From positions 50,008 to 114,007 of the IMG/VR virus record IMGVR_UViG_3300046522_000297: a DNA stretch of 64,000 nucleotides, one strand, 5' to 3'. A model generated the notes under the pieces. That model saw nothing but the letters and a program-made list of their open reading frames with translations. It was not told where the DNA came from and did not search any database. Each line of letters opens with the position of its first letter. The stretch's first letter is position 1. Both the position numbers and the translations under genes were made by a program. This document shows positions 5,229 through 6,623 of this stretch, in pieces. This DNA is from a virus.

Positions 5229-5411
5229 GAACGTGATGGTCTTCCCCCGAAACCCAACGGCCCGGTCAAGGAAATGTACCTGAGCTGGAAGAACAAACTC
5301 TGCTATCGAATTGACTTTCAATAATTAGCGGATCTCTGGTATAATAACAGTGTGAGGAACTTTAATGTTCCTTGCACTGTTCAAATATAAACCTCAAATT
5401 TTAGGATTAAC

Positions 5412-6074
5412 ATGGCGAAAGTAAAAAAATCAATCACCCGTCTGTTGGCAGAACGTAAAGCCCTGGAAGATCGTATCAACAAGGCTACTTCGGTGCCCTT
5501 CATCGGTACCATGAAAGGTACCCGCACTCCGACTGTGGTTGGCTACACCGGCCATGGCGTTGAGCAAATCTCCAATCTTTTCAAGGGAAACCTGGACAAA
5601 GTGCGGGGTCTGATCAGTTATCACAACCGTATCACTGCGGCTCTGGTGGAATCGAACGCTACCACCAAGGTCAAGATTGGTGAAGAAGAGCTGACCGTCG
5701 CTGCAGCTATCGAGCGCAAGAAGTCGATTCAATTCGACAAGCGCCTCCTGGCTACACTGATCAATCAGTCTTCGCAAGTTCAAGGTCAACTCGATCTGGC
5801 AAACCGTCAGGTTGAAGAAATGATCGAACGCCAGCTGATCAACATCTATGGTTCTGGTGACAAGGCAAAGCTGACTGCGGACCAACGCAAAGAAACCGAA
5901 GATGCGATCCGCGCCCAGCATCAACAGGCCCCGATCGATCCGAACAAGATCGCTGACCTGGCTCGTGCTGAAATGGAGCGCATCAGTAAGTTCGAAACCG
6001 AAATCGACTTTGTCCTGTCGGAAAGTAACGCCAAGACGGAAATCGAGCTCGACGACGAGACTCCCGTAGCCTAA
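5412..6074 (+). CDS. helical/coiled-coil protein resembling the DIP1984/DUF6847-like group
   Basis: SITRLLAERKALEDRI...SNATTKVKIG..LTVAAAIERK...IDP...FETEIDFVLSESNAKT pattern; host-like codon bias; own promoter at 5337. Family label is from recall. Confidence 0.65.
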   Translation: MAKVKKSITRLLAERKALEDRINKATSVPFIGTMKGTRTPTVVGYTGHGVEQISNLFKGNLDKVRGLISYHNRITAALVESNATTKVKIGEEELTVAAAIERKKSIQFDKRLLATLINQSSQVQGQLDLANRQVEEMIERQLINIYGSGDKAKLTADQRKETEDAIRAQHQQAPIDPNKIADLARAEMERISKFETEIDFVLSESNAKTEIELDDETPVA

Positions 6075-6081
6075 AGACTTC

Positions 6082-6448
6082 TGCCACACCACATTAGTTG
6101 AACCATAACCTGACGAACAGGTGATCATCCGGTTCAGGGCCGAGAACTAAAAACGGCCAACCTAAGCCCCCTAAGAAGGGCTGCCTAAAGATAATGGAGC
6201 TCTTCACTGAGCAATCGACTTCTAATCGATCCGTATATAATGCATATACTTTAAATTAAAGTCAACGTTCATTACCTCAAAGGTCAAAGGTTAAAGCTCA
6301 AACTTCAAGCTATCATAAGTTTAAAGTTAAAAGCTCAAGTATTACAACGCTCTTTCAAACCCATGGTTAACGTTTATGAGGGTTCAGGAATAGCCTCTAC
6401 TTGTACGCATGGCTGTCAGCGTTGTGGTTCAACTAATGTGGTGTGGCA
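6082..6448 (+). ncRNA. candidate structured ncRNA with heptamer-repeat tract and embedded tRNA-like arms
   Basis: 28-bp terminal stem (one G.U) plus 5 bp, internal hairpins, 13 AAAGNTY-like units, followed by an intrinsic terminator. Confidence 0.75.
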
Positions 6449-6450
6449 CA

Positions 6451-6480
6451 GATCCCTAGTTTCGACTGGGGATTTTTTTT
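6451..6480 (+). terminator. intrinsic terminator
   Basis: ATCCCTAGT-TTCG-ACTGGGGAT plus T-run. Confidence 0.85.
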
Positions 6481-6517
6481 AGCTCAATTAAGCTCATCCG
6501 TTTTGGTATAAGATTAG

Positions 6518-6590
6518 TGTCATGTAACTCAGCGGTAGAGTGCTAGAACCTTTCTAGAAGTCGCCAGTTCGATTCTGGTCACGGCCTCCC
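6518..6590 (+). pseudogene. degenerate tRNA-like element (5-nt anticodon loop, no CCA)
   Basis: Intact D-arm ACTC-AGCGGTA-GAGT and T-arm GCCAG-TTCGATT-CTGGT; anticodon arm CTAGA-ACCTT-TCTAG; mismatched acceptor. Confidence 0.65.
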
Positions 6591-6623
6591 CGAAAGGGGA
6601 GTTTATTTAGTCAAACAGGAGAT

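What the first reader, a model, noticed from the sequence alone, without database searches (positions are those of the whole stretch)
5318..6480. Self-contained protein + repeat-bearing ncRNA unit (candidate undescribed ribonucleoprotein system)
Seen: one transcription unit (promoter motif at 5337, terminator 6451-6480) holds a 220-aa helical protein gene followed 7 nt later by a ~370-nt ORF-free region. Its ends pair: 6082-6109 with 6421-6448 (28 bp, one G.U), extended by CTGAC/GTCAG. Inside are short hairpins (GGCCG/CGGCC, AGCCC/GGGCT, CCATG/CATGG) and an unpaired tract of 13 contiguous 6-9-nt units at 6258-6352 (AAAGTC, AACGTTC, ATTACCTC, AAAGGTC, AAAGGTT, AAAGCTC, AAACTTC, AAGCTATC, ATAAGTTT, AAAGTTA, AAAGCTC, AAGTATTAC, AACGCTC). 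Inference: the long closing stem looks like an RNase III-type processing stem releasing a discrete RNA, and the ~7-nt periodicity suggests one repeat bound per subunit of an oligomer (ring or filament) of the upstream protein, as in TRAP or type III toxin-antitoxin logic. I cannot assign the RNA to a named family.
Basis: partly seen in the sequence, partly recalled or inferred. Interest (0 to 1): 0.92.

Follow-up and report, generated by a model that had tools for sequence, protein, structure and literature searches.

The report
Phage helical protein with heptamer-repeat RNA
Right behind a small helical-protein gene this phage encodes a real, knotted RNA of about 370 bases that displays a run of 7-base units. 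The same gene-plus-RNA pair recurs in hundreds of phages (T5 included) and in bacterial chromosomes, so it is probably an undescribed protein-RNA particle whose job is still unknown.

Summary
One promoter-to-terminator unit (5337-6480) holds a 220-aa helical protein gene and a 367-nt ORF-free RNA.

**RNA anatomy**
- A 34-bp stem closes the RNA (6082-6115 with 6414-6448).
- The "GGCCG hairpin" is half of an H-type pseudoknot (6131-6158).
- The unit of the repeat tract (6258-6352) is U-Y-A-A-A-G-N.
- A three-helix 3' domain lies at 6347-6421.

**Conservation**
- The same RNA follows homologues of the protein in about 150 of 166 loci examined. These include T5, T5-like, Otagovirus, gut and jumbo phages, and non-prophage chromosomal sites in 34 Lysinibacillus/Solibacillus species.
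- Stems covary strongly, and G-U pairs place the fold on the + strand.
- A covariance model built without the window hits it once (E 4.6e-6).

**Relation to known families**
- The window RNA has no Rfam hit.
- Relatives' first 86 nt are the orphan motif RAGATH-27 (RF03100).

**Reading**
- Binding of the protein to the repeats, RNase III processing and the biological role remain untested.
- Best reading, at about 55%: an RNA scaffold loaded with the partner protein, tied to tRNA clusters.

This scan found the same module earlier on at least 10 other genomes, with the same verdict.

The parts
5337..5345 (+). Extended -10 promoter TGGTATAAT of the unit.
   Evidence: TGGTATAA occurs 15 times, all on the + strand, against 2.4 expected. 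The next copy is at 6504. The sequence was read.
5412..6074 (+). Gene for a 220-aa helical protein with two SNAxT motifs (residues 81-85 and 203-209). The RBS TAGGA lies at 5402-5406.
   Evidence: phrog_1491 at E 5.6e-52. No Pfam, NCBIfam or PADLOC family. 736 phage records carry a homologue. 3552 clusters at 50% identity match. AF2 model at pLDDT 85. Internal repeat of the motif, hhalign E 3e-4.
6082..6115 (+). P1, 5' arm of the closing stem.
   Evidence: Pairs with 6414-6448 for 34 bp, with C6420 bulged. Equivalent stems of unrelated sequence occur in relatives, with the inner end conserved as ..CG / UG...
6131..6158 (+). PK1, an H-type pseudoknot. S1 is 6131-6135 with 6144-6148. S2 is 6138-6142 with 6154-6158. 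Loop 3 is the A-rich AAAAA.
   Evidence: Brute-force pseudoknot search: score 26 against 15.7 for shuffles. The same layout, starting 17-20 nt after P1, recurs with different stem sequences in most relatives.
6159..6257 (+). Variable region with hairpins: 6165-6182, 6199-6212, 6214-6230 (5-bp stem with the 7-nt loop CUUCUAA) and 6233-6249.
   Evidence: In relatives this region varies in length, and in L039 and L035 it holds a whole tRNA gene.
6258..6352 (+). Array of about 10-13 heptamers with unit U-Y-A-A-A-G-N.
   Evidence: PWM sites at 6261, 6276, 6283, 6290, 6297, 6303, 6320, 6327, 6334 and 6343. Across 50 RNAs there are 530 sites, with 224 spacings of exactly 7 nt. TRF finds periods of 7 and 14.
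6347..6421 (+). Conserved 3' domain: 'UUUCAAACC', then P_a (6361-6365 with 6408-6412), P_b (6371-6373 with 6405-6407), P_c (6378-6381 with 6394-6397), then GGCUG.
   Evidence: Covariance model R1, built without the window, gives a single hit in 64 kb at 41 bits, E 4.6e-6. Covariation score 0.461 against 0.167 in shuffles, 0 of 500 reaching it. P_a is 98.5% paired.
6414..6448 (+). P1, 3' arm of the closing stem.
6450..6480 (+). Intrinsic terminator that ends the unit.
   Evidence: An 11-bp stem followed by a T-run.

Best explanation
This is a two-part genetic module that moves and is kept as a unit. It consists of a gene for a ~210-aa helical protein and, co-transcribed a few bases behind it, a ~370-nt structured RNA.

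The RNA is closed by a long terminal stem. It carries a compact H-type pseudoknot, a variable region, a conserved three-helix 3' domain and, between them, an unpaired array of about ten to thirteen U-Y-A-A-A-G-N heptamers.

I infer that the folded parts hold the array open. I further infer that the heptamers are binding sites for the partner protein. Its two invariant SNAxT motifs sit together at one pole of the helical bundle, so several protein copies would load side by side on one RNA to form a ribonucleoprotein particle.

The module sits in phage tRNA clusters and tolerates whole tRNA genes inside the RNA. It also survives as a single-copy chromosomal locus in a bacterial clade. So its job is most likely in RNA or translation housekeeping, or its protection during infection, and not in virion structure.

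What is shown:
- the transcription unit;
- the RNA fold and its strand;
- the near-obligate gene-RNA linkage.

What is inferred:
- binding of the protein to the heptamers;
- stoichiometry;
- maturation;
- the biological role.
For: One unit:
- The promoter motif occurs at 5337 and next at 6504. The terminator is at 6450-6475.

The RNA is real:
- Fold z = -8.8.
- Closing stems score 32.1 on the + strand, 25.0 on the - strand and 24.2 when shuffled. The + strand is better in 110 of 133 loci.
- Stems of unrelated sequence keep the same position and the same inner ..CG/UG.. end.
- The pseudoknot recurs with different stem sequences.
- 3' domain covariation is 0.461 against 0.167, with 0 of 500 shuffles reaching it.
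- Model R1, built without the window, hits the window once at E 4.6e-6. It hits 74 of 99 relatives' loci once each, always downstream on the gene's strand.

Linkage:
- The 3' domain signature is present downstream of the gene in 150 of 166 loci. It occurs in 2 upstream controls and 6 reverse-complement controls.
- R1 has a single hit in the whole 114-kb phage record and in one 4.9-Mb Lysinibacillus genome, beside the gene.

Autonomy:
- 34 Lysinibacillus/Solibacillus species carry gene plus RNA. In 17 of them the locus is syntenic, among housekeeping genes with no phage genes.
- 41 of 201 sampled genomes of that bacterial family have a match, all but one a single match.

Array:
- Unit U-Y-A-A-A-G-N with 7-nt spacing. 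A 14-nt super-period comes from alternating C and U at position 2.

Protein:
- The most conserved residues are two copies of a SNAxT-strand motif.
- Both motifs adjoin the small sheet at one end of the AF2 model.
Against: - No direct evidence of binding, of a discrete processed RNA, or of expression.
- The protein is near neutral (pI about 5-7). That is unusual for a protein that coats RNA.
- It has no recognised RNA-binding fold. The best PDB match is 3kdq, a protein of unknown function, at Z 10.5. F-BAR-like helical bundles follow at Z about 8, which is in the range of chance for helical proteins.
- The number of heptamers varies from about 5 to 16, and two jumbo-phage relatives have only irregularly spaced UUCAA motifs. 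A fixed ring stoichiometry is therefore unlikely.
- I found no co-variation between the protein motif and the RNA unit, because both barely vary.
Confidence: 0.55

Rival explanations
1. The RNA is a decoy or sponge. Its unpaired heptamer array titrates a host factor, such as an RNA-binding protein or a tRNA- or mRNA-directed nuclease. The upstream protein only stabilises, loads or regulates it.
For: - Many short A-rich units held single-stranded between stable folds resemble sponge RNAs such as CsrB (established knowledge).
- The module sits in phage tRNA clusters: 33 of 60 loci have tRNA genes within about 1.5 kb on the same strand.
- The protein lacks a basic charge.
Against: - The strict gene-RNA linkage over roughly 30% protein identity is not needed for a stand-alone sponge.
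- The module is kept as a single-copy locus in bacterial chromosomes without phage genes. A sponge against the cell's own factor is harder to explain there.
- Hosts range from Gram-negatives to Bacillota, so the target would have to be universal.
Confidence: 0.2
2. The pair is a toxin-antitoxin-like or defence/counter-defence pair. The repeat RNA would neutralise or sense the protein, by type III TA logic. That would explain its presence in both phages and chromosomes.
For: - A protein gene plus a repeat-bearing RNA form one compact unit.
- The unit occurs in lytic phages and as an isolated chromosomal locus.
- It looks mobile between very different genomes.
Against: - No PADLOC match and no nuclease or toxin fold.
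- The RNA lies downstream of the gene, not upstream.
- Units are 7 nt, not about 35 nt.
- The RNA is one closed, knotted molecule and not a cleavable concatemer.
- The locus has been kept at one syntenic chromosomal site across 17 species, which looks more like a housekeeping gene than an addiction module.
Confidence: 0.12
3. The region is a cis-acting 3' UTR element that only stabilises or autoregulates the mRNA of the upstream gene.
For: The RNA always lies directly behind the gene and before a terminator.
Against: - About 300-470 nt with a pseudoknot, a conserved three-helix domain and a repeat array is far more than 3' end protection needs.
- tRNA genes are embedded inside it or abut it. 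tRNA processing enzymes would cut it away from the mRNA there.
Confidence: 0.08
4. The region acts as DNA: iterons with inverted repeats of an origin, a packaging site or a mobile element.
For: A long inverted repeat flanks a tract of short direct repeats.
Against: - Stem scores depend on strand, through G-U pairs.
- The arms covary freely in sequence.
- A pseudoknot and nested helices covary.
- The element sits between a promoter and an intrinsic terminator.
Confidence: 0.03

Closest known systems
RAGATH-27 RNA motif (Rfam RF03100). It is an orphan candidate sRNA of 86 positions with one annotated hairpin. I recall it coming from the comparative surveys behind PMC5737381, but the paper text held here does not name it.
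   Same: In gut-phage relatives L068, L071 and L084 the first 84 nt of this RNA family score 95-97 bits against a gathering score of 76.1. That stretch covers the P1 5' arm, CGAAAAC and PK1. L087, L088, L092 and L096 score 44-48 bits. So RF03100 is the 5' end of the same RNA family.
   Different: - The Rfam model covers about a quarter of the RNA.
- It annotates one hairpin where there is a pseudoknot.
- It lacks the closing stem partner, the heptamer array and the 3' domain.
- It names no partner protein.
- The window RNA does not match it even at E <= 10.
Repeat-array RNAs bound by oligomeric proteins: the TRAP-trp leader with 11 (G/U)AG repeats, and CsrB/RsmZ-CsrA with GGA motifs.
   Same: There are many short, evenly spaced motifs in single-stranded RNA. 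The number of units (about 10-13) is in the range of those systems (established knowledge; array shown).
   Different: - The motif is different (UYAAAGN).
- The protein is different: a helical bundle, with no TRAP or CsrA family hit.
- The array is enclosed in a knotted scaffold.
- Protein and RNA are encoded as one unit.
Type III toxin-antitoxin systems (ToxIN, CptIN, AbiQ/antiQ).
   Same: A protein gene is paired with an RNA made of tandem repeats, and such pairs occur in phages and in bacteria.
   Different: - There the repeats are about 34-36 nt, lie upstream of the gene and are cut into units by the toxin.
- The toxin is an endoribonuclease.
- None of this holds here.
GOLLD and ROOL large RNAs of phages and prophages.
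   Same: They are large ornate RNAs of unknown function that often lie next to tRNA genes in phages (PMC5737381, section 18).
   Different: - There is no Rfam hit to either.
- This RNA is smaller.
- It has a repeat array and an obligate neighbouring protein gene.
tmRNA.
   Same: The order of elements is alike: paired 5' and 3' ends, then a pseudoknot, then a long unpaired tract. tRNA-linked context is also shared. Relatives with an embedded tRNA would mature as two pieces, like permuted tmRNA.
   Different: - There is no tRNA-like acceptor/T-arm end and no CCA.
- There is no tag reading frame.
- ARAGORN and Rfam find no tmRNA.
- The partner is not SmpB.

Membership tests
RAGATH-27 (RF03100) | The covariance model score reaches the gathering threshold of 76.1 bits. 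| tested here: not met
   The window region 5950-6620 has no RF03100 hit at E <= 10. Relatives L068, L071 and L084 score 95-97 bits, and L087, L088, L092 and L096 score 44-48 bits.
RAGATH-27 (RF03100) | The same RNA family, judged by shared architecture and genomic position: behind a phrog_1491-type gene, with P1 5' arm, A-rich joiner and pseudoknot. | tested here: met
   The window has a P1 arm ending in CG, then AAC..., then PK1. Its 3' domain matches model R1, which was built partly from RAGATH-27-bearing loci and without the window (E 4.6e-6).
Heptamer-array RNA behind phrog_1491 genes (the family defined here) | A closing stem that starts within about 100 nt of the stop codon, has an inner ..CG/UG.. 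end, and is followed by a 3' domain of AAANC + P_a + GCUG. | tested here: met
   Window 6082-6115 with 6414-6448, and 6347-6421. 150 of 166 loci carry the signature against 2 and 6 in the two controls.
Type III toxin-antitoxin | An endoribonuclease toxin (ToxN/AbiQ-type), preceded by repeats of about 35 nt that it cleaves. | tested here: not met
   No Pfam or PADLOC hit. The protein is a helical bundle. The repeats are 7 nt and lie downstream. Cleavage could not be tested.
TRAP-type attenuation | A TRAP protein family member with (G/U)AG triplet repeats in a leader RNA. | tested here: not met
   No TRAP family hit. The unit is UYAAAGN, and it lies in an RNA behind the gene, not in a leader.
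CsrB/Rsm sponge RNAs | Multiple GGA motifs, mostly in hairpin loops. | tested here: not met
   The PWM of the unit has A at positions 4-6 and G at position 7, with no GGA core. No Rfam hit.
tmRNA | A tRNA-like domain with acceptor stem, T-arm and CCA, plus a tag ORF. | tested here: not met
   ARAGORN finds no tmRNA in the window. There is no Rfam tmRNA hit.
GOLLD / ROOL | A match to the Rfam models. | tested here: not met
   No hit in the window or in 28 relatives' loci.
Tail fibre protein (the annotation attached to phrog_1491) | A structural-module context and a fibre-type fold. | tested here: not met
   The gene lies in early/tRNA regions of phages and in bacterial housekeeping loci. The AF2 model is a helical bundle with no fibre match. 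The label looks like an inherited coiled-coil misannotation.

The most novel reading that the evidence does not exclude
The heptamer array may be a docking rack for tRNAs.

The unit U-Y-A-A-A-G is complementary to an anticodon loop that reads C32-U33-U34-U35-R36-A37. Its variants UAAAAG and UGAAAG are complementary to the loops of tRNA-Lys(UUU) and tRNA-Glu(UUC). Together with tRNA-Gln(UUG), these are the tRNAs that share a modified U34 and that anticodon nucleases favour as targets.

On this reading the protein-RNA particle would capture, shield or hand over these tRNAs, or decoy the nucleases that cut them, during infection or translational stress. That would explain three things:
- why the module lives inside phage tRNA clusters;
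- why it tolerates embedded tRNA genes;
- why some bacteria keep it.

The complementarity is my own reading of the PWM. Nothing here tests it.
Probability: 0.08. Interest if true: 0.95.

Novelty: categorically new. Interest (0 to 1): 0.8.

Why it matters
If the reading holds, one of the best-studied phages (T5) and hundreds of other large phages carry an unrecognised ribonucleoprotein. So do a clade of soil bacteria. The particle would be built from a protein family with thousands of unannotated members (3552 clusters at 50% identity) and a ~300-470-nt knotted RNA, of which public catalogues hold only an 86-nt fragment.

The 7-nt repeat array inside a closed scaffold has no characterised counterpart. 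Its constant association with tRNA clusters points to an unexplored layer of how phages manage translation or evade tRNA-directed defences.

In practice it also corrects a widespread 'tail fiber protein' misannotation. It fills a 350-440-nt 'empty' gap that is left unannotated in most of the ~440 T5-like genome records (52 of 60 sampled rows). T5 and E. coli make it directly testable.

Tried and rejected
**Ideas tested and dropped**
- A helix between the joiner after P1 and the segment before the 3' domain. The best helices score 11.4 against 10.7 for shuffles, so there is no support.
- A second pseudoknot inside the 3' domain. A scan of all column pairs on the model-fitted alignment showed real covariation only for P_a, P_b and P_c. 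Earlier notes of this scan call the RNA 'doubly knotted'. I could neither confirm nor exclude this.
- Co-variation between the protein's SNAxT motifs and the RNA unit. Both are nearly invariant, so the test is uninformative.
- T-loop mimicry (UUCAAAUCC at the start of the 3' domain, GUUCAAA units). Only about half of the units have C at the needed position and there is no T-stem. Kept only as a remark.
- tmRNA, 6S, GOLLD/ROOL and riboswitch or ribozyme identity. No Rfam or ARAGORN support.

**Searches for the protein's function that found nothing**
- Pfam, NCBIfam and PADLOC gave no hit.
- The PDB sequence profile gave no hit.
- Foldseek gave nothing at E <= 0.001.
- VIA-align gave 3kdq, a protein of unknown function, at Z 10.5. 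Generic helical bundles followed.
- The ESM Atlas gave only unnamed phage clusters. A DUF6847 cluster was the nearest named lead, at 0.87.

**Literature**
- Searches for T5 ncRNA, RAGATH-27, DUF6847/DIP1984 and heptanucleotide repeats found no paper on this module.
- The tRNA-array paper PMC8421152 notes linked protein genes, but not this module, in the text I searched.

The single protein P0026 was used instead.
- RNAduplex-style stem detection was too permissive. I replaced it with an ungapped stem search with controls.
Full report
**What is in the window**

The region 5318-6480 is a single transcription unit.
- The motif at 5337 is an extended -10 box, TGGTATAAT. The octamer TGGTATAA occurs 15 times in the window, always on the + strand, against 2.4 expected by chance. 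It flanks the unit at 5337 and 6504, with no copy in between.
- An intrinsic terminator lies at 6450-6475 with a T-run.
- The unit holds ORF 5412-6074 (220 aa) and 367 nt without a conserved ORF.
- The window is part of a 114-kb IMG/VR phage record. The unit lies in a tRNA-rich stretch.

**The RNA fold in the window**

- The 411 nt after the stop codon fold at -142.2 kcal/mol against -94.0 +/- 5.5 for shuffles, z = -8.8.
6082-6109 pairs with 6421-6448, and CTGACG 6110-6115 pairs with TGTCAG 6414-6419. C6420 is bulged, giving 34 bp.
- The 'GGCCG/CGGCC hairpin' is stem 2 of an H-type pseudoknot. Stem 1 is 6131-6135 with 6144-6148, stem 2 is 6138-6142 with 6154-6158, and loop 3 is AAAAA.
- A variable region with four hairpins follows (6159-6257).
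- The heptamer array runs from 6258 to 6352.
- The 3' domain at 6347-6421 has helices P_a (6361-6365 with 6408-6412), P_b and P_c, and ends in GGCUG, which runs into P1.

**It is conserved, it is RNA, and it lies on the + strand**

Homologues of the protein occur in 736 phage records. These include T5-like Demerecviridae, Otagovirus, PVP-SE1-like phages, Bacillus Bcp1 and JBP901, lactococcal phages and Erwinia jumbo phages. In COT4, pVp-1 and Sw2 the gene is followed by an unannotated gap of 370-440 nt.

I collected 166 loci from IMG/VR and bacterial genomes.
- In most of them an ungapped stem of 13-28 bp starts a few bases after the stop codon and spans 255-470 nt.
- The arms are unrelated in sequence between lineages but keep the inner ..CG/UG.. 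end.
- The best stem scores 32.1 on the + strand, 25.0 on the reverse complement and 24.2 after shuffling. The + strand is better in 110 of 133 loci. This is the G-U signature of an RNA helix on the gene's strand.
- The pseudoknot recurs 17-20 nt after P1 with quite different stem sequences.
- The 3' domain alignment of 40 relatives, without the window, has 81.7% of cells paired against 64.0% in shuffles. Its covariation score is 0.461 against 0.167, and 0 of 500 shuffles reach it. P_a is 98.5% paired, with four of its five pairs changing on both sides.
- A covariance model from that alignment hits the 64-kb window exactly once, at 6347-6421 (+), at 41 bits and E 4.6e-6. It also hits the whole phage record only once.
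- It hits 74 of 99 relatives' loci once each, always downstream on the gene's strand. T5 itself (L183) and Lysinibacillus are among them.
- A simple signature (AAANC, a 5-bp P_a, then C[U/A]G) is present downstream of the gene in 150 of 166 loci. It occurs in 2 upstream controls and 6 reverse-complement controls. Most of the 16 'misses' were found by the model.

**The repeat array**

- TRF finds period 7 in 42 arrays and period 14 in 16 arrays across 49 non-redundant RNAs.
- An iterated PWM gives the unit U(0.80) Y(C 0.44, U 0.41) A(0.96) A(0.95) A(0.74) G(0.74) N. The U of the next unit is at 0.99.
- There are 530 sites in 50 RNAs. 224 successive spacings are exactly 7 nt, against 29 of 8 nt and 9 of 6 nt.
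- The window has ten sites in the tract. The count per RNA ranges from about 5 to 16.
- Two jumbo-phage relatives have only irregularly spaced UUCAA motifs.

**The protein**

- No Pfam, NCBIfam or PADLOC family matches. The PHROG label 'tail fiber protein' does not fit its context or fold.
- The family is very large: 3552 clusters at 50% identity, nearly all of 200-220 aa.
- The AF2 model (pLDDT 85) is a bundle of long helices. A small sheet at one end is made from the N-terminus, a central hairpin and the C-terminus.
- The best structural match is 3kdq, a C. diphtheriae protein of unknown function, at Z 10.5. The remaining matches are generic helical bundles.
- The invariant residues fall in two copies of a helix-end motif...SNATTKV(strand) and ...SESNAxT(strand). 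The two copies align to each other (hhalign E 3e-4), and both adjoin the sheet.
- The protein is near neutral.

**Context**

- tRNA genes lie on the same strand within about 1.5 kb in 33 of 60 phage loci.
- In several loci a tRNA starts about 3-20 nt after P1.
- In L039 and L035 a whole tRNA gene sits inside the variable region of the RNA. In those phages the mature RNA must therefore be in two pieces held together by P1.
- The module also exists outside phages. 34 Lysinibacillus/Solibacillus species carry gene, RNA and terminator.
- In 17 of these species the module lies at one syntenic site, between an MFS transporter gene and a TRAM/U5-methyltransferase gene. The surroundings are housekeeping genes with no phage genes. 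Other species hold it at other housekeeping sites.
- 41 of 201 sampled genomes of that bacterial family have a match, all but one a single match.
- In one 4.9-Mb genome the RNA model hits once, about 200 nt from the protein match on the same strand.

**Relation to known families**

- The window RNA has no Rfam hit even at E <= 10.
- In gut-phage relatives the first 84 nt score 95-97 bits on RF03100, RAGATH-27, whose gathering score is 76.1. Nearer relatives of those score 44-48 bits.
- RAGATH-27 is therefore a 5' fragment of this RNA family. It annotates one hairpin where there is a pseudoknot, and it has no described function.
- I found no paper that treats it or the protein.
- In most of the ~440 T5-like GenBank records the region is unannotated (52 of 60 sampled rows).

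**Interpretation**

The pairing of gene and RNA persists down to roughly 30% protein identity and through transfer into bacterial chromosomes. That argues that the two products work together. The most economical mechanism is an RNP in which the folded ends present the heptamers as binding sites for the protein's SNAxT pole. The C/U alternation with a 14-nt super-period would fit two slightly different sites or a dimer.

This is inference.

It cannot be general, because many relatives have stems of 13-16 bp and abutting tRNAs.

The rivals are a decoy or sponge for a host factor, a TA-like or defence pair, a cis 3' UTR element and a DNA element. They are weighed in their own sections. The DNA reading is essentially excluded by the strand asymmetry and the covariation.

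**Earlier notes of this scan**

After my own analysis I found that the scan had met this module on at least ten other genomes. The follow-up verdicts matched mine: a real, knotted RNA with a partner protein, RAGATH-27 as the closest known entry, and T5 and bacterial copies.

- the controlled strand test;
- a model built without the window;
- the PWM of the unit;
- the internal repeat of the protein motif;
- the syntenic, non-prophage Lysinibacillus locus;
- the count of linkage against controls.

Noticed in passing
window 6518-6587: A tRNA-like gene, behind its own TGGTATAAG box at 6504, is called by Rfam (38.5 bits against a gathering score of 29) but not by ARAGORN. It may be a non-canonical tRNA.
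   Followed up: no
window, 15 sites (2432, 4038, 5337, 6504, 6984, 7648, 12239 ... 32631): TGGTATAA occurs 15 times, all on the + strand, against 2.4 expected. It is probably this phage's early or middle promoter element (an extended -10 box).
   Followed up: partly
window 6214-6230: A hairpin with a 5-bp UCGA-type stem and a 7-nt loop CUUCUAA, which is anticodon-arm-like with UCU. L011 and L054 have the same UCGA stem with other 7-nt loops. In the 88%-identical relative L007 the loop reads CAUUUAA. So the stem is conserved and the loop is not.
   Followed up: partly
L039 2212-2286 and L035 2226-2302: Whole tRNA genes (Ser-UGA, Thr-UGU) are embedded in the variable region of the heptamer RNA. 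This implies a two-piece mature RNA in those phages.
   Followed up: partly
L136-L152 (Lysinibacillus chromosomes): In 17 species the module lies at a syntenic site, convergent with a TRAM/tRNA-(uracil-5)-methyltransferase-family gene. This may be coincidence, but the neighbour is an RNA-modification enzyme.
   Followed up: partly
L087 2340-2547: A sub-threshold group I intron match (40.4 bits against a gathering score of 50) lies just downstream of the heptamer RNA in a gut-phage relative.
   Followed up: no
L133, L135 (relatives of protein P0094; L132 and L134 come from 'GVMAG' contigs): These relatives keep P1, the pseudoknot and the 3' domain. In place of the regular array they have irregularly spaced (G/A)UUCAA motifs among extra hairpins. 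Their protein's second motif reads SEANGKT instead of SESNAxT.
   Followed up: partly
window 5430-6128 (- strand): A 232-aa antisense ORF overlaps the whole protein gene. No evidence makes it a gene, and it is probably a shadow of the coding frame.
   Followed up: no
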